Source: an uncultured Gemmatimonadaceae bacterium (lineage in GTDB: Bacteria; Gemmatimonadota; Gemmatimonadetes; Gemmatimonadales; Gemmatimonadaceae). From it: a DNA stretch of 64,000 nt. Every line of letters starts with the position of its first letter. Within the stretch, counting starts at the first letter, position 1. Position numbers and translations under genes: made by a program. This document shows positions 888 through 64,000 of the stretch, piece by piece. The stretch spans positions 96,001 to 160,000 of the forward strand of contig CAWHHI010000017.1 of assembly GCA_963829055.1 (NCBI GenBank), written 5' to 3'. The notes below the pieces were generated by a model. It worked only from the letters and a program-made list of their open reading frames with translations, was not told the DNA's origin and did no database searches.

Positions 888-3317
888 TCAGCTCGATCGC
901 ATCGCGGCCATCGGATCGACGCGCGTGGCTCGACGAGCGGGGATGAGGCACGCGGCAACGCCGCTCACGACGAGCACCGCCACCACCGCCGCGAACACGG
1001 TTGGATCCGCGGTGCCCACGCCGAACAGCATCACCTGCAGGCCGCGCGCCAACAGTAGCGCGAGCACGAGGCCGATCGCGAGACCGACGCCGAGCTGCAC
1101 GAGCCCCTGACGTAGCACGAGCCGCAGGACGTCTCCGGGGCCGGCGCCAAGCGCGAGCCTAACGCCCATCTCCTGCGTGCGGCGGCTGACCGAGAACGAC
1201 ATCACGCCGTACAGCCCGATCGCGGCGAGGAACAGCGCCGCGACGCCGAACGCGCTGAACAGCGTACCGAACGTGCCGTAGAACCACGTGCTCAACGCCA
1301 CCACCTGGTCCATCGTCCGCACGTCGTACGTGGGGATATCGGCATCGATCGACGCGACGATCTCGCGCACGCGACTCGTGAGCGCCAGCGGATTCGCGTC
1401 CGACGTCCGAACGGCAACACTCACCGCGCTCGGCGCGGCCTGCGCCGCTGGCAGGTAGAAGCCCGCGCCGTTCTCCGCATCGCGCACGCCGTTCATGTGC
1501 GCGTCCGGCACGACGCCTACGATAGTCAGCCACGGCGCCGTCGACTTCTCTTCGCCGACGCGGAAGCGACGACCGATCGCGTCGCCGTTCGGGAAATGGC
1601 GACGCACGAAGCTCGCGTTCACGACGGCGACGGGAACGGAGCCCGCGCGATCGGCCGGCGTGAAGCCACGCCCCTGACGGATCGCAATGCCGAACGTCGA
1701 GAAGAACGTCGGCGTCACAGCGACCTCGCGCGCGAACGGGCGATCGTTCTCCGTCGCGTAGCGCTCGCCTTCGACCGTATACTCCGCGCCTGACGACGGC
1801 GTCAGCGGAAGCGCGGTCGAGAGCGTTACGGCGCGCGCGTTAGGCTCGCGCTCCAGCCGACGCGTGAGCTCCTCGACGAACCGCACACGCTTCTCTGCAT
1901 CCGGGTACGTGCTCGCGGGAAGATCGACGCGCGCGGTGAACATCGACGCCGTGGTGACGCCGAAATCAGTGCGCTGGAGCACCACGATACTCTTGATCGC
2001 CATCCCGGCCGCGACGAGCAGCGCACATGACAGCGCGACCTCCGCTATCACGAGCGCGCGGCTGAAGCGCGCGAGCCGGAAGCTCGACGAGCCGCGTCCC
2101 TCGTCCTTGAGCACGTCACCGATGCTCACGCCGGACGCCTGGATCGCCGGCAGCACTCCGGCGAGCAGACTCGCGAGCGTCGTGATGCCGACAGTGAACG
2201 CCACCACCGTGAAGTCCATGTTCACGCGAATCCAGAACGGAATCTCGATAGCGGACTTCATCGCGTTATTGAAGAACGAGACGCCGGCGAATCCGATGCC
2301 GAGCCCCAGTGCGCCACCTAACGCGGAAAGTACGAGCGCCTCCGCCATGAACTGGACGAGGATGCGACGACGCGTCGCGCCAAGCGCGCTGCGGATCGCG
2401 ACCTCGCGACTGCGCACGACGGCGCGCGCGAGCAGGAGGTTCGCAACGTTCGCGCAGGCGATGAGCAGCACGCCGAGCACGGCGACGAACATCGTATAGA
2501 AGAGCACGAGCTCGTCGCTGTTGACGAACTCCCGCGCGTACGGCTTGAGGATCGGCAGCACGCCCGCGTTCGTCGCCGGATAGCGCGTCTCGAGCGCCTT
2601 GGTCACCGTCGCCATGTTCGCGTAGGCGCGATCGAGTGACACACCGGGACGAAGTCGACCAAATACCTCGAGCCGCTGGCCCTCTCCGCGCGGAATCTCG
2701 AGGGGGTTCAGGCGGAGCGGGACCCAGATGTCCTGTCTGACCGGAAACGCGAACCCCTTGGGCATGACGCCGATGATCGTCGCGGGGTCGCCGTTCACCC
2801 GCACGACGCGCCCGATGATCCCCGGATCGCGCGCGAACCGGTTCTCCCAGATCGTGTTGCCGATGACGACCACGTTCGGCGCCCCGGGGCGTTCATCGTC
2901 CGCGGTCAGCGTGCGACCCATGGCTGCCCGCACACGCGCCAGGCCGAACATGCTCGCCGTCGCGAACGCGCCCGAATACCGCTCGGCTCGCGCACCCGGC
3001 GCGGCGAGATTGACCGTACCCTCGTAAAACGCGGCCAGGTCCGTGAACGATTGCTGCGCACTGCGCCAGTCGACGAAGTCGTGAATTGGAACCGGCACGC
3101 TCTGAACGCCTGCCGGCAGGTTGCTCTCCTCGATGTGAACGAGCTCCTCCGGCTTCTCCAGCGGCAGCCCCTTGAGAACGACACCGTCGAGGATGCTGAA
3201 CGTCGCCGTGGTCAGGCCAATACCCAGCGCGAACGCGAGCACGGCGATGGCCGAGAGGCCGGGGCTCCGCGCGAGAAAGCGCGTCGCGAGGCGAACGTCG
3301 GAGATCGATGACTTCAT
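888..3317 (-). CDS. Duplicated orphan ABC permease (ADOP; MacB_PCD/FtsX x2)
   Basis: 809 aa; LALGIG motif, LLIACANVANLLLAR, REVAIRSALGA, C-terminal EMGVRLALGA and PARRATRVDPMAAMR. Confidence 0.92.
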   Translation of the reverse strand: MKSSISDVRLATRFLARSPGLSAIAVLAFALGIGLTTATFSILDGVVLKGLPLEKPEELVHIEESNLPAGVQSVPVPIHDFVDWRSAQQSFTDLAAFYEGTVNLAAPGARAERYSGAFATASMFGLARVRAAMGRTLTADDERPGAPNVVVIGNTIWENRFARDPGIIGRVVRVNGDPATIIGVMPKGFAFPVRQDIWVPLRLNPLEIPRGEGQRLEVFGRLRPGVSLDRAYANMATVTKALETRYPATNAGVLPILKPYAREFVNSDELVLFYTMFVAVLGVLLIACANVANLLLARAVVRSREVAIRSALGATRRRILVQFMAEALVLSALGGALGLGIGFAGVSFFNNAMKSAIEIPFWIRVNMDFTVVAFTVGITTLASLLAGVLPAIQASGVSIGDVLKDEGRGSSSFRLARFSRALVIAEVALSCALLVAAGMAIKSIVVLQRTDFGVTTASMFTARVDLPASTYPDAEKRVRFVEELTRRLEREPNARAVTLSTALPLTPSSGAEYTVEGERYATENDRPFAREVAVTPTFFSTFGIAIRQGRGFTPADRAGSVPVAVVNASFVRRHFPNGDAIGRRFRVGEEKSTAPWLTIVGVVPDAHMNGVRDAENGAGFYLPAAQAAPSAVSVAVRTSDANPLALTSRVREIVASIDADIPTYDVRTMDQVVALSTWFYGTFGTLFSAFGVAALFLAAIGLYGVMSFSVSRRTQEMGVRLALGAGPGDVLRLVLRQGLVQLGVGLAIGLVLALLLARGLQVMLFGVGTADPTVFAAVVAVLVVSGVAACLIPARRATRVDPMAAMRSS

Positions 3318-3363
3318 GGGCGTCGTCCTGGTAGGTGAGTCGGCCGGTCCGGGATGAGGGACG

Positions 3364-3389
3364 GACGGACCCCGCCGGGAGAAGTTTCA
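3364..3389 (-). promoter_or_regulatory. Candidate ECF-sigma promoter (TGAAAC-N16-CGTC) upstream of the first ADOP permease
   Basis: Minus strand reads TGAAAC ttctcccggcggggtc CGTC about 47 bp before the ATG, matching the generic ECF AAC/CGT consensus. Pattern match only. Confidence 0.35.
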
Positions 3390-3462
3390 GCGATGTGACG
3401 AGACGAGACCCGCCTACACCAGGCGCACCGGACGCCGCCGTTCGCGGCGCGGCGCCGGCGTC

Positions 3463-4587
3463 TCAGTCGCCTTCAGGCTTCCACTCACCGGACAGCTCCT
3501 GCCACATCCGGTCGATCGCCGATCCCTTCATCTGCGCGTCGAAGTTCGCGCGGAGGAACGCATCGCCATGCGAGAAGCGTTCGCCTAACGCCGCGAGATC
3601 GATCGCGGCGCGGAGCTGATCCGCGGTCATTCCAGGACGGTACGCCGCCTTCGCCTGACGCGAGATCGACTCGAGCGTCTCGGCCACGTCGCGCAGATAT
3701 TGATTGTCGCGCATGACAGGCCCGTGCCCGGGGACGATGCTCGCAACGTCCATGCGCTCGATGGTGCGGAGGACGACTGCCCACTCGGTGATGTAGGACT
3801 CTGTCGCGAACGGGAACGGAAAGACAATGAGATCGCCGACGAGCAGACTTTTCGAGTCCGGCAGGTAAGCGACGATATCGCCGGCCGTGTTGCCGCGTCC
3901 GAGGAAGCTGAGCTCGACGCTGCGTTTGCCGAGGTCGAGTGTCAGCGTCGTATCGATCTGGCGGTCGACGCCGCGGTACTCCATCGCATCGCACTCCGGC
4001 ATCTGCGCATCCGTCGCCTCGGCGAAGTTCTGCAGGCGATGGAGTGTGGAGTCGGAGATCGGAGTGCCGTCGGGTCGCTTGCGGCTCGCGAGCAGGTCGC
4101 GGAGCGGCTGTGAGGAATCCACGAGATCTTTCCTGCACGCCTCGCCGCGAAAGCTGTCGCGACGACTCTCGATCATCTTCGCGGTGAACGTGTGCGCGAC
4201 GATCTGGACGCCGGGGTAGGCCCTGGCGATTTCGGCGTTGCCCGCCCAGTGATCGTCGTGCCAGTGTGAGATGACCACGTAGCGCACCGGCTTGTCGGTG
4301 AGCCGCTTCACGTCGCCGGCGATCTGCCGCGTGATCGACGGATGGTGTCCCGTGTCGAAGAGCAATACGGCGTCCGTACCGATCACCGCGATGATGTTGC
4401 TGCTGACGATCGGGTTGAGGCGCTTCTCGAAGAAGCCGTAGACGTTCGGCGCGATCTCGACGGTGTCGTAGTCGAACGGCCCGGGCGCGCGAACCGAGGG
4501 CGTGCCGGCCGTCGCCAACAGCGAAGTGGCGACGAGCGCGGATCGGCTGGCGCGGAGCCCAGTACGGGCGGGATGAGGTAGCCGCAT
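3463..4587 (-). CDS. Secreted MBL-fold metallo-hydrolase
   Basis: SHWHDDH metal motif, GNTAGD, LVGDL, VPGHG; signal-peptide-like N-terminus. The start at 4587 avoids overlap with the divergent peptidase. Confidence 0.85.
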   Translation of the reverse strand: MRLPHPARTGLRASRSALVATSLLATAGTPSVRAPGPFDYDTVEIAPNVYGFFEKRLNPIVSSNIIAVIGTDAVLLFDTGHHPSITRQIAGDVKRLTDKPVRYVVISHWHDDHWAGNAEIARAYPGVQIVAHTFTAKMIESRRDSFRGEACRKDLVDSSQPLRDLLASRKRPDGTPISDSTLHRLQNFAEATDAQMPECDAMEYRGVDRQIDTTLTLDLGKRSVELSFLGRGNTAGDIVAYLPDSKSLLVGDLIVFPFPFATESYITEWAVVLRTIERMDVASIVPGHGPVMRDNQYLRDVAETLESISRQAKAAYRPGMTADQLRAAIDLAALGERFSHGDAFLRANFDAQMKGSAIDRMWQELSGEWKPEGD

Positions 4588-6559: not shown

Positions 6560-7759
6560 TCAGTACCCGAGTGTCAAGGCAAGTGATTCAGTCGGTAGCA
6601 TGTCCTTCCATTGGTGGATGAGCCTCTGATACGCATGCCCGACCGCACGCTGTTTGCGGTCGATGTCGTAGAGGCCTAACGAGTTCACGCGGCCGTTGTT
6701 CTCGCGCAGGCTCGTGTCCCAGTCCACCTGGTCGATCAGCGAGTACCAGGTGAAGCCGACGATCGGGATGCCGTCTTCCTTGAGACGGATCATCTGGGCC
6801 CACTCCTTCCACAGCCACCGCTCGGCGAACGGCTCCTTGATGTTCGTCTCGGTGTGCATGACCGGGAGGCGATAGCGGCTGAAATATTGCCGAGCGAGGA
6901 TGTAGTAGCCGAAGATCTCGCCAGCCGTCTTCGTCTCGCGCTCCTCGCAGACGAGGTGCTCGTTCGTCTCGTAGTAGTCCGTTCCCATGATGCAGTGCGC
7001 CTTCACGCGGTTCTCCTGGAACCAGCGGTACTCCTCGCGGGTCATGCCGTAATCCATCAGGTATTGATAGATCGGCGCGGAGACGGGATAGCCATACGTG
7101 AGGTCGAGCGCGAGAAAGCGTCGCTCGTTGAGAAAGCGCGCGAGCGGCAAGCACGTCGGATCCTCCGGATGGAAGTACTCCGACGATTCGCTCTGGATGA
7201 ACGTGGGGCGGTCGATCGTGCCGAGGATCGCGACCATCGCGCGCACGTTCGCCTCGCACAGATGCCTGATCGCGGTGACGAACGCGCGCTCGCTGCGCAG
7301 CCGTTCGTTCCACCAGCCGTTCAGCGCGGAGAACGTCGCGGCGATGAAGATCTCGTTGACAGGCGTGTAGAGCTTGAGCCACGGATAGCGCTGCGCGAAC
7401 GCGCGCGCGTATTCGGCGAAGTGGCGGGGGAAGTCCGGGTTCTGAAAGTCGCCGAGCCAGTCGGGAATCCCGAAGTGACAGAGGTCGACGATCGGCGTGA
7501 TGCCGAGCTCGCTCAGGGCGTTGAATGTCTCATCCGCGAACGACCAGTCGTAGCGGCCGGGACCGAGATGCGTACGGTAGTACGGCGGACCGTAGCGGAG
7601 AAACGGGATGCCCATCTCGACCACGAGGCCGAAGTCCTCGCGCCACCGCTCGTAGTGTCCCGTCTTCTCCATCTCGTCGACGCGCATGGTGCTTCCATCC
7701 GGGAGCGCGACAGTCGGGTAACTGTTCTCGATGCCGGACGCGAACATGAAGTCGTGCAT
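6560..7759 (-). CDS. Glycoside hydrolase family 1-like protein
   Basis: FMFASGIENSYP, HYERWREDF, LRYGPPY, DLCHFG, YTPVNE (acid/base), MHTETN (nucleophile), GFTWYSLIDQVDW. Confidence 0.85.
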   Translation of the reverse strand: MHDFMFASGIENSYPTVALPDGSTMRVDEMEKTGHYERWREDFGLVVEMGIPFLRYGPPYYRTHLGPGRYDWSFADETFNALSELGITPIVDLCHFGIPDWLGDFQNPDFPRHFAEYARAFAQRYPWLKLYTPVNEIFIAATFSALNGWWNERLRSERAFVTAIRHLCEANVRAMVAILGTIDRPTFIQSESSEYFHPEDPTCLPLARFLNERRFLALDLTYGYPVSAPIYQYLMDYGMTREEYRWFQENRVKAHCIMGTDYYETNEHLVCEERETKTAGEIFGYYILARQYFSRYRLPVMHTETNIKEPFAERWLWKEWAQMIRLKEDGIPIVGFTWYSLIDQVDWDTSLRENNGRVNSLGLYDIDRKQRAVGHAYQRLIHQWKDMLPTESLALTLGY

Positions 7760-8670: not shown

Positions 8671-11367
8671 CTAGTCCCCTCGCAATACCTCCACCGGATT
8701 CGTCCGAGTAGCCCGCAGCGCCGGGACGTAGCTCGCGGCCAGTGCCGCGATCGCAAGCGTCGCAGCAACCAGCACCATCGTGATCGGGTCCGTCGGCGTG
8801 ACCGCGAACAGGAAGCTCGAGAGGAATCGCGTTAGGCCGAACGCCAGCACCAGACCCGCCACGATGCCGACGCCCGCCAGCGCCATCCCCTGCCGCACCA
8901 CCATCCCCGCCACGCTCGACGGCTTCGCACCCAGAGCCACACGGATGCCGATCTCCTTCCTCCGCTGTGCGACACCGTACGCGATGACACCGTAGATCCC
9001 GATCACCGCGATCGCCAGCGCCACGATCGAGAACGTCGAGAAGAGGAACATCAGGAATCGCGGCTGCGACACCGACTCGCCGCGCACTTCCTCCATGGTG
9101 CGGAACTGACCCACCGGAAGCTGGGCATCCAGCGCCGCGACCTCGCCACGCACCGCGCGCGTGAGCGTGGACGGCTCGCCGGTCGTCCGCAGCACGAGGT
9201 TCAGCGAGCGCATGACGGCCCCGCCACCCCAGAAGCGGAATTGCGTGTGCGCGAGATACATCTCGCCGACCGGCGTCGCCGCCAGGCTCGCCTGCCTAAC
9301 GTCGGCGACGATGCCGACGATCGTCACCATCCCCGGCCCGGCCTTGCCGCCGAGCTTGAAACGCTTGCCGATCGGGTCGTCGTTCTGCCAGTACTTCTTC
9401 GCCAGCGCTTCGTTGATCACGACCACGCCCGGAGTCGTTTCGAGATCCGTCTCCTCGATGCCTCGACCGCGAAGCAGCCGCATCCCGATCGCCTTGAAAT
9501 ACCCCGGCGTCACCACCTGCCAGTCCGCTCGGCGACGCGTCTCCCCCGGTGCGACCGGACGCCCCTCGATCTCGATGCCGAGGTCGCCCCGCTCCGCCAC
9601 GAGTGGCACGCCGGCGACGCCGCCGGCACTCGAGACACCCGGAAGTCCCGCGACACGGCGCGTGAGCTCCTGATAGAACCGCACGACGCGCTCGGTCTCC
9701 GCATAACGAGATGACGGCAGCGAGATCGGCACCGTGAGCACGTGGTCGACGCGGTAGCCGGGGTCCACCGACAGCAGTTGGACAAAGCTTCGCGTCATGA
9801 GGCCCGCACCGACGAGCAGCACGAGCGCGATCGCGACTTCGCTGATCACGAGCGTGCGGCGCGCCCCCTGCCTGACGCCGCCGGCCACGCCCCGGCCACC
9901 CTCGCGCAGCATCGACTGCACGTTGACGCGCGTCGCGTTCACGGCGGGAAGCAGCCCGAAGATCACGCCCACTACCGTCGATGCCGCCAACGCGAACAGC
10001 AGAACGCGGAAGTCGACGCCGATCGCGTCGAGACGCGGGATGTTCGGCGGACGCAGCGCGACGAGAAACCGAGTCCCGAGAAAGGCGAGCGCTATTCCAA
10101 CGACGCCACCCGTGAGCGACAGCACGACGCTCTCGACGAGCATTTGCCGCATGAGTCGCGCGCGACCGGCGCCGAGCGCGGTGCGCACCGCCATCTCGCG
10201 ACGACGCCCCTCGGTTCGCGACAACAGCAAGCTCGCGACGTTCGCGCAGGCGATGAGCAGCACGAACCCGACCGCGCCCAGCAACACCATGAGCGTCGGG
10301 CGCACTCGGCCGACGACACTGTCGAGCAGCGGCAGCGCGCCGCCGACGAAGTTCATCTTCGCCGGGTAATCGTTAGGGAAGTCCACCGGGAACCGACGCG
10401 CCACCGACGCCACGTCCGCACTCGCCTGACTCGGCGTCACCCCGCGGCGCAGTCGCGCGACGCCGGACAGGAAATGACTCCCGCGGATCATGGTGCTGTC
10501 ACGGCTCAATCCCAGCGGGACGAACAGCTGCGCGGCGTCGGTCTCCGAGAGCTGCTCGGGAACACGGAAGCCTTCGGGCATCACGCCGACGACAGTGGTC
10601 GCCGTACCATCGAGGATGATGCTCTTCCCGACGACGTCCCGCGCGCCACCGAAGCGGCGCTGCCAGAGTCCATAGCCGAGGACCACGACGTTGACGCCGG
10701 GGACATCCTCGGACGAGCTGATGACACGCCCGACTGCCGGAGCGACCCCGAGCGCCGGAAAAACACCCGCACTGAGCAGAACCGCGGGGAGACGTTCCGG
10801 CTCGCCATCTCCCGTTAGGCTGACCACGGCGGGCGTGTAGACGCCGAACGCCTCGAACGTCTTGGTGCCGTCGCGATAATCGAAGTACTCCGCGGGCGAG
10901 ACTGATGAGATCGCGCCGAGGATGTCGGCGTTCCCGTCCCACGTGTTGCGAATGGCGACGAGGCGCTCGGGCTCCGCGTAAGGCAGCGGTCGCAGCAGCA
11001 CGCCGTTCACGACGCTGAACAGCGCGGTGTTCGCGCCGATGCCGAGCGCGAGCGTGATGATCGCGACGATGGTGAAGCCGGGATTGCGGCGAAGCGCGCG
11101 CACGGCGTAGCGGAGGTCCTTCACGGTATTCTCGACGCCGTTCCCGCCGCGCGCGTCGCGGAGCTCGTCCTTCGTGCTCTCGAAGCCGCCGAACACCCGG
11201 GCCGCTTCGGTCCGCGCGGTGTTCGCGTCCAGCCCGCGCCGCTGGCGCGCCGAGGCCTCCATGTCGAGATGAAACCGGAGCTCGTCGTCGATCTCGCGCT
11301 CGACTGTTCGTCGATCGAACAGTGCGCGGAGACCGAACACCAGGCGTTGGATGATCGGTGCGGGCAT
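8671..11367 (-). CDS. Duplicated orphan ABC permease (ADOP) with N-terminal permease-prefix domain
   Basis: 898 aa; EIDDELRFHLDME...ARVFGG prefix, DLRYAVRALRRNPGF, LLIACANVA, IGIRVALGA; GAAGGAG RBS. Confidence 0.93.
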   Translation of the reverse strand: MPAPIIQRLVFGLRALFDRRTVEREIDDELRFHLDMEASARQRRGLDANTARTEAARVFGGFESTKDELRDARGGNGVENTVKDLRYAVRALRRNPGFTIVAIITLALGIGANTALFSVVNGVLLRPLPYAEPERLVAIRNTWDGNADILGAISSVSPAEYFDYRDGTKTFEAFGVYTPAVVSLTGDGEPERLPAVLLSAGVFPALGVAPAVGRVISSSEDVPGVNVVVLGYGLWQRRFGGARDVVGKSIILDGTATTVVGVMPEGFRVPEQLSETDAAQLFVPLGLSRDSTMIRGSHFLSGVARLRRGVTPSQASADVASVARRFPVDFPNDYPAKMNFVGGALPLLDSVVGRVRPTLMVLLGAVGFVLLIACANVASLLLSRTEGRRREMAVRTALGAGRARLMRQMLVESVVLSLTGGVVGIALAFLGTRFLVALRPPNIPRLDAIGVDFRVLLFALAASTVVGVIFGLLPAVNATRVNVQSMLREGGRGVAGGVRQGARRTLVISEVAIALVLLVGAGLMTRSFVQLLSVDPGYRVDHVLTVPISLPSSRYAETERVVRFYQELTRRVAGLPGVSSAGGVAGVPLVAERGDLGIEIEGRPVAPGETRRRADWQVVTPGYFKAIGMRLLRGRGIEETDLETTPGVVVINEALAKKYWQNDDPIGKRFKLGGKAGPGMVTIVGIVADVRQASLAATPVGEMYLAHTQFRFWGGGAVMRSLNLVLRTTGEPSTLTRAVRGEVAALDAQLPVGQFRTMEEVRGESVSQPRFLMFLFSTFSIVALAIAVIGIYGVIAYGVAQRRKEIGIRVALGAKPSSVAGMVVRQGMALAGVGIVAGLVLAFGLTRFLSSFLFAVTPTDPITMVLVAATLAIAALAASYVPALRATRTNPVEVLRGD

Positions 11368-14426: not shown

Positions 14427-14430
14427 GGTC

Positions 14431-33143: not shown

Positions 33144-33203
33144 ACCGCTGGCGCGTTAGGCCGCGGTTCGTTCGCGGACGCTGACGCGCTACTCGCTGAC
33201 GCG

Positions 33204-38208: not shown

Positions 38209-38277
38209 CGCGCAGCAACGCGGTTGGGACGAGGACGGCAGTATTTACACAAATACCACACTGCCCACGGGACTGCC

Positions 38278-38430: not shown

Positions 38431-38437
38431 TGCTCTG

Positions 38438-53667: not shown

Positions 53668-55080
53668 TCAGTCCCCAGTAGCTACCGATACGGCACGCGC
53701 CCGGCGTGCCGCCAGCGTGTAGATCCCAGCGCCTAACAAGTTCGTGCCAACCACGATCCCCCCGACCTTCATCGCGAACAGCTGCCAGCTCGGCACATCG
53801 ATGATCGGGAAGATCGACAGGATCGAATAGAGCACCGTGACGGCGAGGCCCGAGGCTGATGCGAGCTTGAGCCACAGCGGCGGCGTCCAGCCGATGCGTC
53901 CCGCGCCAAACAGCGGGATCGAGAACAGCGCGATGTACGCCATCGCGTACATGATGCCGCCCGCGTTCTCGAGCAGCTGAAACGCTTCCTGCGTCCCCGT
54001 CCCGACGAGGCTCCCCAGCGAGAGCACGAGTGTCACCGCGCCGACGAAGAGAATCGAGTTCACTGGCGTGCGCGACTTCGGATGCAGCCGCGTGAACCAC
54101 TTCGGCAGGAGCCCATCCCATCCCGCGACCATCGGCAGCCGCGTGTTCCCGGCGAACATCATGTTCAGCGCGCCGAGCAGGCGCGTCAGGAGCAACAGGA
54201 TCAGTACCGGCGCGATGTAGCTGGCCACGCCGAGTCCGCGGACGCCGGCCCGGAGCGTCTGCGGGATGGGACTCACGAGATCGATCTGGTCACGCGGCAC
54301 GAACGCCAGCACCGTGGCCGTCCCCATGATGAACATGAGCGCGATGAGCGGCGTCGCGATCACCACCGATTGCGGGATCGTGCGCTCGGGGCGCTTGGCC
54401 TCGCCGGCCATGAGCGCCACGAACTCGAACCCGGACATGGCGCCTAACGCCATCTTGCCGAAGATGTTGAGGCTGAGCAGGGACAGCGCGGGCAGCTCGG
54501 TCTCGAAGGGACGGTAGCGCGGCAGCGTCCCACGACTGAGCGCCAGGATCGGCAGGCCAATGAGCGCGATGTAGGTGAGGATCTGCGCCACGCCGCCGAA
54601 GTTGCTGAACCACTTGCCGAGGCCGAGTCCCTTGATCGCAACGAGGACGAGCAGCACCGCCAGCACGACGCTCACGGTGGGCATGTACCACCCGGCGCTC
54701 GCAATGGAGCTCGGCCCGCCTCCTGTCCCACCAATCAGGTACGCGATGTTCTGCCCGGCCATCACGTAGAACGACGCGAGGATCACGATCGCGAACACCC
54801 ACAGGTTCCACGCGACCAGAAAGCCGACGAACTCGCCGAAGCTGGCCTTGGCCCACTGATAGAGTCCGCCCTCGAGCGGCATGCGGCGATTGAGGTAGAT
54901 CACCACCGCGGCCTGCGGCAGGTAGTAGGTCACGATCGCCAGCATCCAGAACACGAGCTGGGACGGTCCGAGCTTCGCCGCGGTTCCGACCCAGCCGGAC
55001 CCGACGACGAAGACCACCTGCATGAGAACGAGATCGGCGAGCCCGAGCTCGCGGCGGAGTTCCGTGGTCGGAGAATTCAT
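53668..55080 (-). CDS. APC-family amino acid permease
   Basis: LRRELGLADLV, PLEGGLYQW, GFEF...AGEAKRPERTIP, WFTRLHPKSRTP; about 12 TM. Confidence 0.92.
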   Translation of the reverse strand: MNSPTTELRRELGLADLVLMQVVFVVGSGWVGTAAKLGPSQLVFWMLAIVTYYLPQAAVVIYLNRRMPLEGGLYQWAKASFGEFVGFLVAWNLWVFAIVILASFYVMAGQNIAYLIGGTGGGPSSIASAGWYMPTVSVVLAVLLVLVAIKGLGLGKWFSNFGGVAQILTYIALIGLPILALSRGTLPRYRPFETELPALSLLSLNIFGKMALGAMSGFEFVALMAGEAKRPERTIPQSVVIATPLIALMFIMGTATVLAFVPRDQIDLVSPIPQTLRAGVRGLGVASYIAPVLILLLLTRLLGALNMMFAGNTRLPMVAGWDGLLPKWFTRLHPKSRTPVNSILFVGAVTLVLSLGSLVGTGTQEAFQLLENAGGIMYAMAYIALFSIPLFGAGRIGWTPPLWLKLASASGLAVTVLYSILSIFPIIDVPSWQLFAMKVGGIVVGTNLLGAGIYTLAARRARAVSVATGD

Positions 55081-55897: not shown

Positions 55898-56019
55898 AGA
55901 GCCTCCAATGGTCGATTGCTCGTTGCAGCCACTAGTAAAGCAAAGGGCACGCCGCCGCGGCGTGCCCTGACTCGATGCTTCAAGCTGCCTAACTATGTGT
56001 TTGCCTAACGCTCAGATGC

Positions 56020-57873: not shown

Positions 57874-59133
57874 GTGTCTCATCGATCGTTCTCGCTGTTC
57901 CTGTTCCACGCCGCCGGCGGTGCGCGTGTCGCGTCGCGTAACGCGATCGCCACGATCGGGCTCATCATCATCGTCCTCGGGTCAGCCCCCGACCCGTTCG
58001 TCTGGCTCCGCTTCCTCGCGCTCGGCGTCGCCGGAAAAGGAGTACCGAGTGGACCGCTCATCGGGCTCGTCGCGATCGCGTTCGGGCTCGCGCGGGATGC
58101 CGTCCCGCGCCTAACGCTTGGCCTGGGTGGCTGGACACGATCGTTGCCGGTGAACGGCGAGCAGCATCGCCGTGGGGTAATGTACGCCATGCCGGTCGTG
58201 CAAATTCCACTTGGGGTGTCTGTGCTCCTTGCCGCTGTCCTCACCGCGGCAGCCTATCACGTGCCGCTGTCGTGGCCGAAGCTGCTCGGCGCGCCGCTCG
58301 CGCTCGTGGCAGCCGGTGCAGCGGCGGTACCGGCGCGTCGATGGATCGTGAGCACGCCATGCTTCGCCGCGTCAGGCGTGCTCGCGGCGCTCGGGCGCTG
58401 GCCTGCGTTGGCCGCCTCGATCGCACTGTTCGTCATCGGAGACCTCGTCGCTGGCGCTCTGCGATTCGCGCGCCCGCGTGCCGCCGTTGCGGCGCCCGCG
58501 ACGCCGGGAACGCTGCGCATGTTTCGCTTCACCTGGCGCGCGGTTGGCTGGCGCCTGCTGGCGCCCTTTCCCGCGGCCGCGCTGGCGCTTGCCGCGGCGT
58601 GGTTCTACACGCGCAACAACGCGCTCTCGCCGTCGGACGTGGGATTCGTCGCCCGATTGTGGACCATCATCGCCATCGCGCTCTACATCGGCGTGGTCGG
58701 CGACACCATTGTGTCTCGCCGGCCTGACTGGCCGTGGATCCGATCGCTGCCGTGGTCGAGCGCGCAACGCGCGGTAGATGATGCGATCGCGCTTGGCGCG
58801 CCGGCGCTCGTGATCGCGATCGCGTCGGCCATCGTCGATGTGCGCACGGTCGCGATCGGCGTTGCCACCGTCCCACCGCTCGCGGCGCTCGGCGCCGTGT
58901 TACTCCACGGCGCTCGCGGTCGCCTAACGCGCGTGAGCGGCGCAATGATCGTTGTCGGCGCCGCACTCGGCACCGCGGTCGCGTTCGTCCCGTTGTTGGC
59001 CGCGGGCGCGCTCGCCTGCACGCCGCTGCTGCTCCGCTGGGCGGCGCGGCGAGATCGACGCGAGATCGTGACCGGCTGGAAGGAGTTGCATCACGACGCG
59101 TCCGGCGACTCGCTCGCCTGGAGCTCACGCTGA
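57874..59133 (+). CDS. Polytopic membrane protein, probable ABC exporter permease partner
   Basis: Many hydrophobic segments with an internal duplication (WTRSLPV / WIRSLPW); directly upstream of an ABC ATPase. Start uncertain. Confidence 0.7.
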   Translation: MSHRSFSLFLFHAAGGARVASRNAIATIGLIIIVLGSAPDPFVWLRFLALGVAGKGVPSGPLIGLVAIAFGLARDAVPRLTLGLGGWTRSLPVNGEQHRRGVMYAMPVVQIPLGVSVLLAAVLTAAAYHVPLSWPKLLGAPLALVAAGAAAVPARRWIVSTPCFAASGVLAALGRWPALAASIALFVIGDLVAGALRFARPRAAVAAPATPGTLRMFRFTWRAVGWRLLAPFPAAALALAAAWFYTRNNALSPSDVGFVARLWTIIAIALYIGVVGDTIVSRRPDWPWIRSLPWSSAQRAVDDAIALGAPALVIAIASAIVDVRTVAIGVATVPPLAALGAVLLHGARGRLTRVSGAMIVVGAALGTAVAFVPLLAAGALACTPLLLRWAARRDRREIVTGWKELHHDASGDSLAWSSR

Positions 59134-59898: not shown

Positions 59899-61789
59899 AT
59901 GAACCGTTCTCATGTGATTCATCGCGCGGCGATTGTCGCGGCGTTCGTCGCCATCTCGCTCGATGCCGTGTCGTGCTCGCGCGCGACCACCACGACGCCG
60001 AGTCCGGGACCGCGCGTGGCGTCAGTTCCACAACCGGCGCCCGTCAAGCTGCCTGCTCCCCCGACTCGCTACGATTGGCCGCCGTACGATCCGCGCGCAA
60101 AGCTGACCGCAGCGCAGGCGAAGTGGATCGACAGCACGCTCGCGTCGCTCCCGCTTCGCGAGCGCATCGGCCAGATGGTCATGGTCTGGGTGCTCGGCGA
60201 CTACACGAGCTACGACGACTCCACGTTCGCCGAGGTGCGGCGGTGGATCGAGCGCGATCACATCGGCGGCGTCAGCATGTCGTTAGGCACGCCGATCGAG
60301 GTCGCGGCCAAGATCAACAACATGCAGCGGCTGTCGCGCGTGCCGCTCATGACCTCGGCCGATCTCGAGCCGGGACTCGGACGGCTCGAGGGTGGCGTTT
60401 TCTCGCACTACCTGCTGGACGCGGGTGGCGCGACGGTGTTCCCGAGCGCGATGGCGATCGCCGCGACGGGACGCGATGAGGACGCGTACGACGTCGCGAA
60501 GATCATTGCGCAGGAAGCGCGCGCCGTCGGCATTCAGGTCAACTTCTCGCCGGTCGTGGACGTCAACAACAATCCATCGAACCCGGTCATCAACACGCGA
60601 TCGTTCGGAGAGGACCCTCAGCGCGTCGCCCGCTTGTCGGCCGCGTTCGTGCGCGGCACGCAGGACGGCGGCGCGGTGTCGACGGCGAAGCACTTCCCGG
60701 GGCATGGCGACACCGACGTCGACTCGCACGTCGGACTCCCGATCGTCGCCGCGAACTGGACCCGACTGGACACGTTGGAGCTCGTGCCGTTTCGCGCGGC
60801 CATCGCGGCCGGGGCGGGCATGGTGATGACGGCGCACATCGCGCTGCCCGTCGTCGAAGGCGACTCGACGACGCCCGCGACGCTCGCGCCGCGCATCATC
60901 ACGGGCGTGCTGCGCGACTCGCTGAAATTCCGCGGTCTCGCGATCACCGACGCGATGACCATGGAAGGCGTCGGCAAGGGCTACGGCGTCGAGGAAAGTT
61001 CGGTGCTCGCGGTGAAGGCGGGTGCGGACATCATCCTCAAGCCGAGCGATCCGACGAAGGCGATCGACGCGGTGCTCGCGGCGGTGGAGCGCGGCGAGAT
61101 CTCGCGCGCGCGCATCGACTCGGCCGCGCGACGCGTGCTCGAGATGAAGGCGCGGACGGGCATCGCGTTCCGGCCGATCGCCGACCTCGATGCGCTACGC
61201 GAAGTCGTTGGCTCCCGCGAGCATCGTGCGACGGCCGACGACATCGCGCGCCGAGCAGTGACGGTCCTGCGCGACAGAAGTGCGCTGCTGCCGGCCGCGG
61301 GGCGCCGCGTAGCAGTCGTGCAGTACATGCCGGAGACGGAGATTCGCGCCGGGAAAATCTTCGGCGGCGAGATTCGCGCGGCAATTCCCGGCGCGCGTGT
61401 GTTCAAGGTGTCACCGGCGACATCGCTGAGCGATCTCGATTCGTTGACTCGGCAGGTCGCGGGGTCGGATCGCGTGATCGTCGCGGCGTACGTGCGCCGG
61501 ATCGAAGGCGAGGGGCGTCCCGCGGTGCCGCCTCACATCGCACGCTGGATCGATACCCTGGCAAAGAAGGAGAAGGTGGTCGTCGTGGCGTTAGGTAATC
61601 CGTATCTGATCCGCCAGTTCCCGAACGTGTCGACGTATCTGGTGACGTACGGGGTAGGCGATGCGCTCGAGCGCGCGGCGGTCGGCGTGGTCCTCGGCCG
61701 CGCAGCGGCGACGGGAACAACGCCGGTGTCGCTGCCGGGCTTCTTCAAGAGAGGGCGATGGCATCCGGCGCGAGCCTGGTACGCGATAG
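59899..61789 (+). CDS. GH3 beta-N-acetylglucosaminidase-like protein; probable +1 frameshift near 61753 (the ORF track runs to 61854)
   Basis: SADLEPG, FSPVVDVN..NPVINTRSFG, KHFPGHGDTDVDSH, MTAHI, ITDAMTM; corrected end FFKRGDGIRREPGTR*. Confidence 0.9.
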
Positions 61790-62068: not shown

Positions 62069-62083
62069 GTGAGTGCAAGCGGC

Positions 62084-62664
62084 CTAACGTGAGGCCCCAA
62101 CTTTACGCCGGGCACGCGAGGGTTTCTTCGTAGCACTCGTGACCACCCGATAGTTCGACAACACACAACCTCCGTCGATTATCCGCGACTCCGTGAGCTG
62201 CAGAGAAATTCTTCTCCCGGGATCGCGGAAGAACGGCACTCCCGACCCGAGCAGGATCGGGTGCACGTTCAGCCCGACCTCGTCGATCACGCCTGCCGCA
62301 AAGAGCGACTGAGCGAGCTCGCCGCCACCCATCACGCAGATCCCCTTCCCCGGCTGCTCCTTCAGCCCGCGCACGAACTCGCCGGCATCGCTCGACACGA
62401 GATGGGCGCCATGACCCACTGACTCGAGCGTCCGGGAAAACACGTACGTCGTGATCCCGCCCGTGCTCGCCGCCGCCACCACCGCCCATCGCGTTCGCGA
62501 CCTCCCACGTCTTCCGGCCCATGAGCATCGTGTCGATGCTCGCCCAGTACGTCGTTCATGACCTCCTGCACATCGCGGCTGAAGTGCAGCCAGTCCATCG
62601 ACCCATCGGGTGGCGCGATGAATCCATCGAGACTGCAGGCGGCGCCGTAGGTGACGGTTCGCAT
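62084..62664 (-). CDS. RibD C-terminal / dihydrofolate reductase-like protein, two frameshifts
   Basis: ACSLDGFIA..DGSMDWL / MLMGRKTWE / YVFSRTL, MGGGELAQSL, IDE..LNVHPILLGSG; GGAGG RBS. Confidence 0.87.
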
Positions 62665-62794
62665 CCGTATCCTCCGCGTAGGGGCTCCAACAGGGAGCGA
62701 GGCGTGGTCGTTCGCGACGAACGGTTCGTGGACGTTATACTATACCGGCGTTTAGTTTCGAACCTATATCGTCATTTAGAAACGGTCAAGACCC

Positions 62795-63414
62795 GTGAGC
62801 CCGCGTCCACGAAAGGTCAGCGACGACGAGATCTTCGCCGCCACGCACCGCGCCACCATGCGCCTCGCACCGAACGAGCTCACGCTCGCCGAGATCGCGG
62901 CCGAGGCTGGCGTGACGGCGGGCGCGGTGGCGCAACGGTTCGGGTCGAAGCGGGCGCTGTTGCTCGCGCTCGCCAAAGCAGCGGCGCGTCCACCGGCGAC
63001 TTCATCGCGCAGCTACGCGCGGAGCATCGATCGCCGCTCGCGGCGGTACGGGCATACGCCGGATGCATGGCCGGTCTCGCGCAGTCCCCCGCGGCACTCG
63101 CGCGTAACCTGGCCTACCTGCAGATCGACCTCGCCGACCCCGACTTTCGCGAGCAACTCTCCGTGCAGGCGCGCCAGACGCGCGCCGGACTACGCGACCT
63201 GTTCGAGGCGGCGGTGGCCGCGCGCGAGTTGAAGCGCGGCACGGACGTCGACGCGCTTGCCCGCACCGTCGAAGCCATGATCGCCGGATCGCTCATGACG
63301 TGGGCGTTCTACCACGATGGGCCGGCCGAGCGCTGGATCCGCGACGACGTGAACGCCGTGCTCGCGCCCTACCTGCACGACGCGCTCGGCCACGAAGCGA
63401 CGTTGACGCGTTAG
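62795..63414 (+). CDS. TetR-family transcriptional regulator, frameshift near 62985, divergent from the reductase
   Basis: RPRKVSDDEI, LTLAEIAAEAGVTAGAVAQRFGSKRALL HTH; helical C-domain in the second frame. Confidence 0.87.
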
Positions 63415-63424
63415 GCGCTTCGCC

Positions 63425-64000
63425 TCAGGCGAGAATATCCCTCAACGCGGCCACGGCCGCGTCCACTTCGGCCTCGGTATTGTAGTAGTGCGGCGAGAGT
63501 CGTACCGCCGATTTCACGTGCTTGGCGTCGAAGTCGTAGATGCCGAACTCACGCAGCGATGAGACGGTGTTGATCCGCCGATCCTTGAGCGCCCGAACGA
63601 TCGGCTCGGCGTCACGTCCCTCGAACGCCGCCGTGACAATGGCGCACCGCGTCGCGCCACGATCGAGCACGCGCACACCGCGCATGCGCGCCTAACGCAT
63701 CACGCAGCCGCTGTGCGAGCGCCCACGCGCGGGATTGCGCCACGTCGATACCGACGTCGAGGGAGTAGCGCGCCGCTGCAGCCTGGCCGAGCACGAGCGC
63801 GTACGGGAATTCCCAATCCTCGTAGCGACGCGCGGTCGGAACGACCTCGTACGTGCCGGCCTCCACCCAGCGCGCGCCGCGCATGTCGACGAACAGCGGG
63901 TGATCTCCGCGCGCGAGCGCGCGATCGGACGCGAACATGAAGCCGATGCCGCGCGGCCCGCGCATGAACTTGCGCGCCGTGGCCGAGAGGTAGTCGCACT
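63425..64000 (-). CDS. Class V aminotransferase / cysteine desulfurase-like protein, 5' part outside the window, frameshift near 63685
   Basis: DYLSATARKFMRGPRGIGF PLP-lysine motif, ARRYE.WE, CAIVT, VRLSPHYYNTEAEV. Confidence 0.87.

What the first reader, a model, noticed from the sequence alone, without database searches (positions are those of the whole stretch)
1157..63697. A non-palindromic motif CGTTAGG(C) is written into the genome about once per kb, on both strands and across reading frames: candidate undescribed uptake-sequence or HIP1-like genome mark
SEEN (manual count, may miss a few): 58 GTTAGG/CCTAAC hexamers, of which 52 are CGTTAGG/CCTAACG and 41 the exact octamer CGTTAGGC/GCCTAACG. 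Octamer starts: 1157, 1838, 3583, 6674, 8830, 9294, 10813, 13817, 14161, 15594, 16266, 19734, 23161, 24066, 24213, 27782, 29607, 30243, 32656, 33154, 33405, 34828, 35029, 36684, 37400, 38879, 39443, 40376, 40942, 42643, 48730, 49327, 52674, 54442, 56003, 58109, 58922, 60281, 62082, 63409, 63690. A simple base-composition model at about 69% GC predicts roughly 2 octamers and 7 heptamers. Orientation is balanced (18 CGTTAGGC versus 23 GCCTAACG on the + strand). Most copies lie inside genes and occupy different codon registers, usually via codons disfavoured at high GC: GCG-TTA-GGC (ALG; 3583, 14161), GTT-AGG (VR; 1157, 9294, 13817), CCT-AAC (PN; 1838, 23161), CTA-ACG (LT; 8830, 19734) and CGT-TAG stops (62082, 63409). 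Conserved protein motifs are preserved. ESTABLISHED: Neisseria DUS, Pasteurellaceae USS and cyanobacterial HIP1 are short motifs at high density that accumulate in coding DNA through synonymous positions, whereas Chi and KOPS are strand-polarised. INFERENCE: convergence on one DNA word from different amino-acid contexts points to DNA-level selection or molecular drive. Candidates are uptake bias in transformation, a methyltransferase/repair-driven mark, or a nucleoid-protein site. I do not recognise this motif from any described system, and no cognate protein is evident in the window.
Basis: partly seen in the sequence, partly recalled or inferred. Interest (0 to 1): 0.88.

Follow-up and report, generated by a model that had tools for sequence, protein, structure and literature searches.

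The report
Genome-wide DNA word matching integron core
This soil bacterium has written the eight-letter DNA word CGTTAGGC about 5,000 times through its genes, against its own codon habits, much as a few bacteria tag their own DNA for uptake, and the word is the same one that marks the ends of mobile gene cassettes; what reads it is still unknown.

Summary
The window holds 41 CGTTAGGC (18 +, 23 -) against 1.15 expected. The whole 7.78-Mb genome holds 5,004 against 131-258 expected. It is the most over-represented 8-mer in the genome.

The word stands alone, with no conserved flanks. It shows no strand or replication polarity and occurs in every codon register. Synonymous shuffling predicts 147 copies in coding sequence; 3,155 are observed. 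Copies avoid each other below about 200 bp. A congener keeps 55 of 105 sites, against an 18-20% background.

The word is abundant in 45 of 151 sampled genomes of the family (probably Gemmatimonadaceae). It was enriched in 0 of 92 genomes from other families of the phylum. It is also abundant in Verrucomicrobiota of the order Chthoniobacterales and in tailed-phage structural genes. It equals the R' core of integron attC sites.

Integron integrase, Vsr, RecC, ComEC, ComEA-like genes and secretin do not track word abundance.

Best reading (about 0.4): an uptake-sequence-like self tag, spread by molecular drive and tied to the cassette core.

This scan had already found the same word in other genomes. 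My paper searches found no report.

The parts
1157..1164 (-). CGTTAGGC copy, in a MacB/FtsX permease gene, read GTT-AGG (V-R)
1838..1845 (+). copy, antisense to the same gene, read CCT-AAC (P-N)
3583..3590 (-). copy, read GCG-TTA-GGC (A-L-G), metallo-beta-lactamase-fold gene
6674..6681 (-). copy, read TCG-TTA-GGC (S-L-G)
8830..8837 (+). copy, antisense, read CTA-ACG (L-T)
9294..9301 (-). copy, read GTT-AGG (V-R)
10813..10820 (+). copy, antisense, read CTA-ACG (L-T)
13817..13824 (+). copy, read GTT-AGG (V-R)
14161..14168 (+). copy, read GCG-TTA-GGC (A-L-G)
15594..15601 (+). copy, read A-L-G
16266..16273 (+). copy, read A-L-G
19734..19741 (-). copy, antisense, read CTA-ACG (L-T), histidine kinase gene
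23161..23168 (-). copy, antisense, read CCT-AAC (P-N), GH9 gene
24066..24073 (+). copy, read A-L-G
24213..24220 (+). copy, read A-L-G
27782..27789 (-). copy, antisense, read P-N
29607..29614 (-). copy, read A-L-G, M28 peptidase gene
30243..30250 (+). copy, antisense, read L-T
32656..32663 (+). copy, read A-L-G, amidase gene
33154..33161 (+). copy with no gene call (intergenic by my rough calls)
33405..33412 (-). copy with no gene call
34828..34835 (-). copy, read A-L-G, Ser/Thr kinase gene
35029..35036 (-). copy, read S-L-G
36684..36691 (+). copy with no gene call
37400..37407 (+). copy, antisense, read L-T
38879..38886 (-). copy, read T-L-G, HrpB-like helicase fragment
39443..39450 (-). copy, read A-L-G
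40376..40383 (-). copy, read V-R
40942..40949 (-). copy with no gene call
42643..42650 (+). copy, read S-L-G
48730..48737 (-). copy, antisense, read P-N, beta-lactamase-family gene
49327..49334 (-). copy, antisense, read P-N
52674..52681 (+). copy, read A-L-G
54442..54449 (-). copy, read A-L-G, amino-acid permease gene
56003..56010 (-). copy with no gene call
58109..58116 (-). copy, antisense, read L-T
58922..58929 (-). copy, antisense, read L-T
60281..60288 (+). copy, read S-L-G, GH3 gene
62082..62089 (-). copy overlapping the stop codon (CGT-TAG) of the minus-strand gene 62087-62482 by my reading; the script itself printed 'no call'
63409..63416 (+). copy providing the stop codon CGT-TAG of gene 63067-63411
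63690..63697 (-). copy, read A-L-G

Best explanation
CGTTAGGC is a DNA-level 'self word' of the uptake-sequence kind. Its core GTTAGG is strict. The first letter tolerates C or T, and the last tolerates C, then T, then G.

Inferred mechanism. A still unidentified reader prefers double-stranded DNA that carries the word. Preferential entry of word-bearing alleles, followed by homologous replacement, acts as a molecular drive. The drive writes the word wherever protein coding tolerates it, through rare codons and even stop codons. It stops adding copies close to an existing one.

Tie to integrons. The word is identical to the R' core of integron attC sites, so every gene cassette in soil already carries one copy. 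The uptake bias and the cassette core are therefore most likely coupled.

What is shown and what is inferred. Shown here: the statistics, the anatomy, the conservation, the taxonomic range, the phage copies and the attC identity. Inferred: uptake, the drive, and the direction of the coupling.
For: Abundance and density.
- The genome holds 5,004 copies, or 0.64 per kb, on all 20 contigs. It is the top-ranked over-represented 8-mer.

Strand and polarity.
- Strands are balanced at 2,547 and 2,457.
- Orientation does not follow GC skew (r 0.10, p 0.22) or gene strand (r 0.13, p 0.12). Its spread equals binomial noise.

Anatomy.
- No flank is conserved.
- All four stop-free registers are used: 1,273, 414, 583 and 873 copies.
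- The two stop registers supply 172 TAG and 196 TAA stops.
- 1,861 copies lie outside my gene calls.

Codon cost.
- A synonymous shuffle predicts 147 +/- 15 copies against 3,155 observed.
- 1,276 of 2,743 TTA codons lie inside the word.

Spacing.
- Gaps under 200 bp number 215, against 611 expected from an exponential distribution. Gaps of 0.5-2 kb are in excess.

Evolution.
- A congener about 78% identical in DNA keeps 55 of 105 sites, against 18.1% and 20.4% background. It also has 57 sites of its own, so there is turnover.

Taxonomic range.
- The word is abundant in 45 of 151 sampled family genomes and scarce in 88.
- It was enriched in 0 of 92 genomes from other families of the phylum.

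Phages.
- Tailed-phage structural genes carry 26 copies in 35.7 kb, against 0.89 expected.
- Temperate Pasteurellaceae phages accumulate uptake sequences in the same way (PMC6776037, passages read).

Uptake machinery.
- ComEC, a ComEA-like gene and a secretin are present.

Fixed word.
- The same word serves in Chthoniobacterales, at 1,872-2,425 copies of the 9-mer per genome.
- It is the attC R' core.
- Natural transformation is reported to feed cassette capture by integrons (PMC12614218, abstract and passages).
Against: - No uptake assay exists, and no receptor was found. Only three PilA-like pilins turned up in my rough gene calls.
- ComEC (139 of 151), ComEA-like genes (36 of 36) and secretin (36 of 36) occur in word-rich and word-poor genomes alike. 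They explain nothing about the patchy range.
- There are no dialects. Four word-poor relatives, sampled at 100 kb each, have no alternative hyper-abundant 8-mer. Neisseriaceae and Pasteurellaceae, by contrast, have a dialect throughout (recalled; abstracts seen in the listing).
- Close inverted pairs that could act as terminators are rare.
- One identical word in two phyla is unlike known uptake sequences.
- The repulsion scale of about 150-300 bp is shorter than the fragment sizes I would expect for uptake (my assumption, untested).
Confidence: 0.4

Rival explanations
1. An in-cell self tag. The word is read inside the cell by a DNA-end-processing or defence enzyme, in the manner of Chi for an AddAB-type helicase-nuclease or an unknown nuclease. 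DNA that carries the word is spared or recombined. Both hosts and their phages are then selected, or driven, to carry it.
For: - It is a non-palindromic 8-mer, as Chi is.
- An AddAB-like pair of PD-(D/E)XK and UvrD_C fragments lies at C15:11673-16010.
- Phage structural genes carry the word at host density.
- Some lambdoid phages strongly over-represent host Chi (PMC3784561, abstract read).
Against: - The chromosome shows no polarity. Orientation against GC skew gives r 0.10, with binomial scatter.
- The phage contigs show mixed orientation as well: 7/8, 8/5 and 4/9.
- A 20- to 40-fold excess far exceeds what I recall for Chi.
- RecC is not found in this genome, and occurs in only 1 of 18 word-rich relatives.
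- The word is not G-rich or skewed, unlike known Chi sites (recalled).
Confidence: 0.15
2. Integron-integrase sites. The dispersed words are binding or recombination sites for the integron integrase or a relative. They would act as landing pads of the attG kind, or would be products of integrase-mediated exchange with cassette attC sites.
For: - The word matches the attC R' box, including the preceding C, at 8 of 8 positions in a related order's array (21 of 22 R' boxes).
- The enriched neighbour TGTTAGGC is the other arm of those attC sites.
- The enriched neighbour CGTTAGGT is an R' form in Chthoniobacterales arrays.
- Chthoniobacterales attC sites carry the T before CGTTAGG, as does 93% of that lineage's dispersed words.
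- Integrase is found in 3 of 3 word-rich Chthoniobacterales genomes, and in none of 1 weakly enriched one.
Against: - Integrase over the curated cut-off occurs in 27 of 45 rich and 51 of 88 poor family genomes (Fisher p 0.85).
- None of the window's 41 copies sits in an attC-like hairpin.
- Pairs spaced like attC arms are not enriched.
- Orientation is independent of the flanking genes.
- In one complete word-rich genome, 6 of 17 attC R' boxes are GTTAGAC. Yet CGTTAGAC occurs only 52 times, 30 of them inside the cassette array, against 4,469 CGTTAGGC.
- Published genomic insertion sites need only GWT (bioRxiv 10.1101/2022.09.11.507474, passages read).
- Non-shared sites differ by substitutions, not by 6-bp insertions.
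Confidence: 0.12
3. A chromosome-organising protein site. A nucleoid-associated or chromosome-organising protein binds the word. Selection for an even array of sites keeps it at about one per 1.5 kb.
For: - Copies repel each other at short range and favour gaps of 0.5-2 kb.
- Orientation is free.
- Copies are spread evenly along genes.
- All 20 contigs carry the word.
Against: - Selection on any single one of 5,000 sites would be very weak without a built-in drive.
- Phages carry the word at host density.
- Presence in two phyla and absence from most close relatives would need a mobile architectural protein.
- No candidate gene was found.
Confidence: 0.12
4. A methylation mark spread by repair. 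A methyltransferase marks the word, as with HIP1, and very-short-patch-like repair amplifies it.
For: - By analogy, HIP1 is recognised by two methylases and is reported to enhance transformation in a methylation-dependent way (PMC13756078, abstract read).
- An Eco57I-like fragment and a weak D12-class fragment exist on contig C8.
Against: - No PF00145, PF01555 or PF02384 match was found in the 7.78-Mb assembly, which is 86% complete.
- The gene that overlaps the Eco57I-like match has relatives in all 36 of 36 rich and poor panel genomes.
- Vsr is absent here and present in only 3 of 18 rich against 8 of 18 poor genomes.
- The C-to-T neighbours TGTTAGGC (435) and CGTTAGGT (827) are 10- to 13-fold enriched rather than depleted. 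No transition-specific depletion is seen at inner positions.
Confidence: 0.04
5. No real signal. The excess is a by-product of composition, codon-pair bias, a dispersed repeat, or a sequencing or assembly artefact.
For: - The assembly has many split genes.
- It contains foreign segments.
- Markov models of order 4 to 6 reproduce the count.
Against: - High-order models reproduce the count only because they are fitted on the word's own sub-words.
- The synonymous shuffle fails by 21-fold.
- Four coding registers, both stop registers and intergenic DNA all carry the word.
- There are no flanks to define a repeat.
- 128 kb of foreign high-GC DNA in the same assembly has no copy.
- The word is seen in MAGs from many studies, with contig names of different assembler styles.
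Confidence: 0.01

Closest known systems
DNA uptake sequences: DUS of Neisseriaceae and USS of Pasteurellaceae
   Same: - A short non-palindromic word at 0.5-0.9 per kb.
- Equal on both strands, with no polarity.
- Found inside genes in every usable frame, at the cost of rare codons.
- Spacing more even than chance at short range.
- Retained between species but turning over.
- Scarce in foreign DNA.
- Accumulated by phages of the host (PMC6776037).
   Different: - Uptake bias has not been tested, and no receptor is known.
- No dialects were found in four word-poor relatives.
- One identical word serves two phyla.
- Distribution within one family is patchy, on or off.
- No terminator-like inverted pairs.
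- The word equals the integron attC core.
HIP1 (GCGATCGC) of cyanobacteria
   Same: - A hyper-abundant octamer inside genes.
- Conserved across a clade.
- Quasi-regular spacing.
- Now proposed as an uptake recognition sequence (PMC13756078, abstract).
   Different: - HIP1 is palindromic and tied to two methylases.
- This word is asymmetric.
- No major DNA methylase family was found in the genome.
Integron attC recombination sites (R'' RYYYAAC ... R' GTTRRRY; consensus recalled)
   Same: The 8 letters are those of the R' box, with its preceding C, in cassette arrays of the same order, of a word-rich family member and of Chthoniobacterales.
   Different: - Dispersed copies lack the hairpin, the partner box, the co-orientation and the neighbouring integrase.
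- The attC variant GTTAGAC is not amplified genome-wide.
- Integrase presence does not track the word.
Chi and KOPS/architecture-imparting octamers
   Same: A non-palindromic 8-mer that marks self DNA. Chi is also abundant in some phages (PMC3784561, abstract).
   Different: - Those motifs are co-oriented with replication (recalled).
- This word has no polarity at any scale tested.
- Its excess is an order of magnitude larger.

Membership tests
DNA uptake sequences (DUS/USS) | Genome-wide hyper-abundance of one short word | tested here: met
   5,004 copies against 131-258 expected. Top-ranked 8-mer.
DNA uptake sequences (DUS/USS) | Equal use of both strands, with no replication or transcription polarity | tested here: met
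   2,547 and 2,457 by strand. r 0.10 with GC skew. Flanking-gene orientation is irrelevant.
DNA uptake sequences (DUS/USS) | Written into coding DNA in many frames beyond what codon usage predicts | tested here: met
   Four stop-free registers plus both stop registers are used. Synonymous shuffle gives 147 against 3,155 observed.
DNA uptake sequences (DUS/USS) | Competent cells preferentially take up DNA carrying the word | not testable with these tools
   Needs an uptake or transformation assay.
DNA uptake sequences (DUS/USS) | A cognate receptor in the uptake machinery (ComP-type or ComN-type minor pilin) | tested here: inconclusive
   Only three PilA-like pilins were found by a motif scan of rough gene calls. 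ComEC, ComEA-like genes and secretin are present but universal in the family.
DNA uptake sequences (DUS/USS) | Related lineages carry dialects of the word | tested here: not met
   Four word-poor relatives (100 kb each) have no other hyper-abundant 8-mer. Only the letter before the word varies: T in one genus and in Chthoniobacterales.
DNA uptake sequences (DUS/USS) | Accumulation in long-resident DNA and temperate phages, with scarcity in foreign DNA | tested here: met
   Phage hallmark genes hold 26 copies against 0.89 expected. Foreign segments of 128 kb hold none. Whether these phages are temperate was not tested.
HIP1-like iterated palindromes | Palindromic word recognised by cognate DNA methylases | tested here: not met
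   The word is asymmetric. There is no PF00145, PF01555 or PF02384 match.
Chi / KOPS | Orientation bias with replication direction | tested here: not met
   for the chromosome. One search, for mixed orientation in phage contigs.
Chi / KOPS | Cognate RecBCD or AddAB enzyme | tested here: inconclusive
   RecC is not found. AddAB-like fragments are present. Their specificity is unknown.
Integron attC sites | R''-L''...L'-R' imperfect hairpin of about 60-140 nt | tested here: not met
   0 attC-like hairpins in the 64-kb window. The same script found 22 sites in a true array.
Integron attC sites | Co-oriented array beside an integrase gene | tested here: not met
   Orientation is mixed in the window. 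Words next to this genome's integrase gene lie in coding sequence without hairpins.
REP / MITE dispersed repeats | Conserved sequence beyond the core | tested here: not met
   Flanking positions are near background composition.

The most novel reading that the evidence does not exclude
Two unrelated and abundant groups of soil bacteria, a third of the Gemmatimonadaceae and many Chthoniobacterales, use a DNA-uptake or self-recognition system whose cognate word is the crossover core of integron gene cassettes. Natural transformation in soil would then be tuned to import cassettes as well as kin DNA. The same bias would have written the word thousands of times into these genomes and into their phages.
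Probability: 0.2. Interest if true: 0.9.

Novelty: new variant of a known kind. Interest (0 to 1): 0.78.

Why it matters
Genome-wide self words with a known reader are established in very few bacterial families. Here the same kind of signal appears in uncultured or little-studied soil lineages that are among the most abundant on land.

Three features are unlike any described case:
- One identical word is shared across phyla.
- The word is either abundant or scarce within a single family.
- It is identical to the integron cassette core.

If the link to uptake holds, it would:
- connect natural transformation to the spread of gene cassettes in soil;
- give a sequence handle for making these bacteria genetically tractable;
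- provide a marker that separates resident from foreign DNA in their metagenome bins, as it did for the foreign segments in this assembly.

Tried and rejected
Readings that were tested and dropped.
1. Strand-polarised runs in two other genera. These were an artefact of the truncated match listing. The fetched DNA shows mixed orientation.
2. A cassette array to the right of this genome's integrase gene. The 11 co-oriented copies there are coding sequence without hairpins.
3. Motif-free islands as mobile DNA. They hold second copies of housekeeping genes, 47-59% identical to copies elsewhere. They are foreign or chimeric segments, not islands.
4. Contig C19 as misbinned Verrucomicrobia or a shared mobile element. 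It is the rpoBC, EF-Tu and ribosomal region. Its high cross-phylum identity is ordinary.

Candidate readers or writers that did not track the word.
5. Integron integrase, RecC, Vsr, ComEC, ComEA-like genes, secretin and a helicase/methylase-like gene. I meant to test a type IV secretion ATPase but entered the secretin family instead. The type IV secretion test was not done.
6. Cross-phylum screen of this proteome against 1.2 Mb of Chthoniobacterales DNA. Only conserved housekeeping genes stood out.
7. Pilin motif scan. Three major-pilin-like genes were found, with no match in Chthoniobacterales.

Searches and calls that gave nothing usable.
8. Same-orientation pair scan of viral contigs. It mostly returned co-oriented cassette arrays at all GC contents, not phages.
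9. Read-level check. Thirteen public runs hold half or more of the words of window 30001-40000.
10. Two pattern scans were rejected as 'bad gap'.
11. Paper searches. The searches were: the octamer itself (478 papers matched, the top 20 listed were primers and unrelated uses); Gemmatimonadetes plus uptake sequence (0 papers); Udaeobacter plus competence or DNA uptake; and six mixed terms. None found a report of this word as a genomic feature.

Full report
OBSERVATION. The window holds 41 exact CGTTAGGC at the listed places, 18 on the + strand and 23 on the - strand. Dinucleotide-preserving shuffles give 1.15 +/- 1.00, with at most 3 in 100 shuffles. There are 58 GTTAGG hexamers against 6.0 expected, and 52 heptamers.

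The window is contig 17, bases 96001-160000, of a 7,784,024-base assembly in 20 contigs. The assembly is 86% complete, with about 4% contamination.

GENOME-WIDE STATISTICS. Every contig carries the word at 0.48-0.80 per kb, 5,004 copies in all. Markov expectations are 131 (order 1), 102 (order 2) and 258 (order 3). The word ranks first among all 8-mers at orders 1 and 3.

Orders 4 to 6 reproduce the count. They do so only because they are fitted on the word's own parts: 5,004 of 7,103 GTTAGG hexamers are the word.

I built a rough gene caller based on codon log-likelihood. It gives 6,317 calls and covers 72% of the genome, too little because many genes are split. Shuffling synonymous codons inside each call gives 147 +/- 15 octamers, with a maximum of 177 in 20 shuffles, against 3,155 observed. 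Of all TTA codons, 1,276 of 2,743 lie inside the word.

ANATOMY. Twelve bases on either side of the word are near background composition, apart from a mild G just before (0.39) and just after (0.46). It is therefore not part of a longer repeat.

Of the 5,004 copies, 1,861 lie outside or at the edge of my gene calls. The rest use all four stop-free registers:
- xLG, 1,273 copies;
- VR, 414;
- xLT on the antisense strand, 583;
- PN on the antisense strand, 873.

The two remaining registers contain a stop, and they are used as stops. Of the genes, 172 end in CGT-TAG-GC and 196 end in GCC-TAA-CG. These are 10.6% of TAG stops and 25% of TAA stops.

Orientation does not follow GC skew (r 0.10, p 0.22) or gene strand (r 0.13, p 0.12). 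Its scatter in 50-kb windows equals binomial noise (0.183 against 0.177). Intergenic copies ignore the direction of flanking genes, and copies are spread evenly along genes.

Gaps between neighbouring copies are too rarely short. There are 215 gaps under 200 bp, against 611 expected from an exponential distribution. Gaps of 0.5-2 kb are in excess. Pairs arranged like the two arms of an attC site are no commoner than other arrangements.

Among one-letter neighbours, four are enriched: TGTTAGGC (435 copies, 10-fold), CGTTAGGT (827, 13-fold), CGTTAGGG (428) and CGTTATGC (583). Changes in the inner GTTAGG are otherwise depleted to 0.2-0.6 of expectation.

INTERNAL CONTROL. The three largest word-free stretches all lie at contig ends: C6:5440-55037, C6:591808-623330 and C11:1-46789. 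Their GC content is 0.66-0.73.

They encode housekeeping genes: aroC, the trp genes, ftsK, pepA, folD and greA. For five of the eight I tested, they are second copies, only 47-59% identical to copies elsewhere in the assembly. I read them as foreign or chimeric DNA in this metagenome bin. About 128 kb of high-GC coding DNA from the same assembly thus carries no copy. This speaks against a platform or assembler artefact and for lineage specificity.

EVOLUTION. I fetched 332.6 kb of a species of the same genus. Of this, 176.6 kb aligns to this genome at 77.7% identity. In the alignment, 55 word sites are shared, 50 are in this genome only and 57 are in the relative only.

For comparison, any 8-column window is identical in 18.1% of cases. 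Eight-mers of the same composition are identical in 20.4%. Sites are therefore kept about 2.6 times better than background, yet they turn over.

Where only one species has the word, the other most often has CGTTAGGT (12 cases), CGTCAGGC (12) or CGCTCGGC (6). Gaps are rare. Copies therefore arise by substitution, not by insertion.

TAXONOMIC RANGE. All 7 genomes of the genus have 2,501-5,112 copies.

In 151 genomes drawn from the family, density is bimodal:
- 45 have at least 100 copies per Mb;
- 88 have at most 15 per Mb, below a control word;
- 18 lie between.

One genus holds species with 3,896 and 4,141 copies beside one with 66. In a sample of the phylum, 0 of 92 genomes from 11 other families exceed their control count.

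Four unpublished genomes (G021, G047, G048, G146) are rows in the family tallies, and two (G205, G234) are rows in the phylum tally.

Named Gemmatimonadaceae MAG loci share up to 85% amino-acid identity with its proteins. The family is therefore probably Gemmatimonadaceae, as earlier notes of this scan say for other genomes with the word.

Four word-poor relatives, sampled at 100 kb each, have no other hyper-abundant 8-mer. Three word-rich genera use the same word, and one of them prefers a T before it.

A SECOND PHYLUM. I scanned one genome per species for an inverted pair of the 9-mer TCGTTAGGC. Of the 80 loci with fetched DNA, 72 are titled as Verrucomicrobiota, mostly Chthoniobacterales from many studies. 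Their contig names are of several assembler styles. Five loci are Gemmatimonadaceae and three are other taxa.

In 71 of those Verrucomicrobiota loci (1.226 Mb), there are 1,175 octamers (550 and 625 by strand), and 93% have the T before them. The control word occurs 102 times. Each locus was chosen for holding two copies, so the density is somewhat inflated.

Whole genomes behind three of these loci hold 1,872, 2,219 and 2,425 copies of the 9-mer, against 63-92 for the control. A Candidatus Udaeobacter genome holds only 128 against 46. A named Gemmatimonadaceae genome holds 3,882 against 80.

PHAGES. A scan of viral contigs for same-orientation pairs mostly returned co-oriented cassette arrays, at GC contents from 0.30 to 0.68.

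A scan for inverted pairs returned 53 loci. Six of them, from five contigs, have GC 0.65-0.68, mixed orientation and 0.64-0.91 copies per kb. Their genes match terminase, portal, major head, tape measure, sheath and baseplate families.

Eighteen such genes hold 26 copies in 35.7 kb. A synonymous shuffle gives 0.89 +/- 0.90, with a maximum of 4 in 200 shuffles. Three of the contigs are related to each other, so there are about three independent phage lineages.

I had recalled that prophages lack uptake sequences. The literature corrects this. Temperate Pasteurellaceae phages accumulate USS in step with co-evolution, while large, probably lytic phages do not (PMC6776037, passages read). The phage copies therefore fit the uptake model as well as a protective-tag model. 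I did not establish whether these phages are temperate.

THE INTEGRON LINK. I tested it as follows.
- A word-poor genome of another family of the order holds a true cassette array. Its 22 hairpin sites have the R' box [C/T]CGTTAGGC, and the other arm reads TGTTAGGC.
- A complete word-rich family genome has about 17 attC sites beside its integrase gene. Their R' boxes are GTTAGGC (8), GTTAGAC (6) and GTTGGGC (3), each preceded by TC.
- Chthoniobacterales arrays alternate TCTCGTTAGG[C/T] with C[A/T]TGGTTAGG[C/T] at 115-140 nt. Their R' box therefore carries the same T as that lineage's dispersed 9-mer.

The identity with the attC core is thus real. It extends to the enriched variants TGTTAGGC and CGTTAGGT.

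- Integrase over the curated cut-off is found in 27 of 45 rich and 51 of 88 poor genomes (Fisher p 0.85).
- None of the window's 41 copies lies in an attC-like hairpin.
- CGTTAGAC is common in that rich genome's own attC sites. Yet it occurs only 52 times genome-wide, 30 of them inside the array region, against 4,469 CGTTAGGC.
- Published genomic insertion sites of integron integrases need only GWT (bioRxiv 10.1101/2022.09.11.507474, passages read).

This genome has one integrase match just over the cut-off, at C20:208041-208958. One attC-like hairpin lies nearby, and I found no array.

OTHER CANDIDATE READERS. I compared 18 word-rich and 18 word-poor family genomes.
- RecC: 1 rich and 4 poor; none in this genome.
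- Vsr: 3 rich and 8 poor; none in this genome.
- ComEA-like genes: 36 of 36.
- Secretin: 36 of 36.
- ComEC: 139 of 151 sampled family genomes.

This genome has no match to the three main DNA methylase families. It has only a weak D12-class fragment and an Eco57I-like fragment. A gene overlapping the latter has relatives in all 36 panel genomes. AddAB-like fragments exist. None of these explains which lineages have the word.

READING. The pattern meets most hallmarks of uptake sequences that sequence data can test: density, strand balance, frame-independence at a codon cost, even spacing, retention with turnover, scarcity in foreign DNA and accumulation in phages. Only a process with a built-in drive plausibly maintains thousands of weakly selected sites. 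I therefore favour an uptake- or recombination-linked self tag (0.4).

Three features do not fit the classical cases: one fixed word in two phyla, no dialects, and identity with the cassette core. Transformation is reported to feed cassette capture (PMC12614218, abstract and passages). This coupling is inference.

The rivals are:
- an unpolarised Chi-like or defence self tag (0.15);
- integrase-related sites (0.12);
- a nucleoid protein array (0.12);
- a methylation and repair drive (0.04).

NOVELTY. My four paper searches found no report of this word as a genomic feature. Supplementary files were not searched. The scan itself has met the same word at least eight times in other genomes and reached a similar reading.

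LIMITS.
- The gene calls are rough.
- The genome is an incomplete bin with split genes.
- The candidate tests cover about ten families.
- Relatives are not independent samples.
- The read-level check could not be run.

Noticed in passing
outside the window: G000 C6:5440-55037, C6:591808-623330, C11:1-46789: Three word-free stretches at contig ends carry second, 47-59% identical copies of single-copy housekeeping genes (ftsK, aroC, pepA, folD, DAHP synthase). They are probably chimeric joins or foreign DNA in the bin.
   Followed up: partly
window 454, 561, 578, 11537, 11633, 14431, 14545, 45051: A second dispersed element with the core CCGCTCGGAATGACA has 669 copies genome-wide. It sits between genes, often in pairs about 100 bp apart, and looks like a REP-type repeat. 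Another 12-mer, AGTCGAGGAATC, has 372 copies.
   Followed up: partly
window 38441-40926, 26420-28145, 43642-45092, 5982-6437: Several genes are split or truncated: an HrpB-like helicase in three pieces, a histidine kinase, a chemoreceptor and an M28 peptidase. This suggests indel errors in the assembly, or pseudogenes. It also explains the low coverage of my gene calls.
   Followed up: no
window 891-3317, 8674-11367, 12021-14423, 15287-17083: Four paralogous MacB/FtsX-type permease genes lie within 17 kb.
   Followed up: no
G053:C2:815476-877758 (loci L409-L411); G015:C95:1-24000 (L056, L057): Large chromosomal integron cassette arrays. In the word-rich genome the attC-variant word CGTTAGAC is spread over at least 62 kb around the integrase gene.
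   Followed up: partly
L224 and L194 (82-kb viral contig): A tailed-phage contig rich in the word carries at least four DNA-methyltransferase-like genes. It also carries a Mom-like modification gene and a transposase-family gene.
   Followed up: no
G000 contig C19 (152.7 kb): The rpoB/rpoC, EF-Tu and ribosomal-protein region has the lowest word density of all contigs (0.48 per kb). It also has the lowest GC content and the highest coding density. The word is thus thinner, but still present, in the most constrained genes.
   Followed up: partly
G253 (Chthoniobacterales genome): Four integron-integrase matches over the curated cut-off in one 3.8-Mb genome.
   Followed up: no
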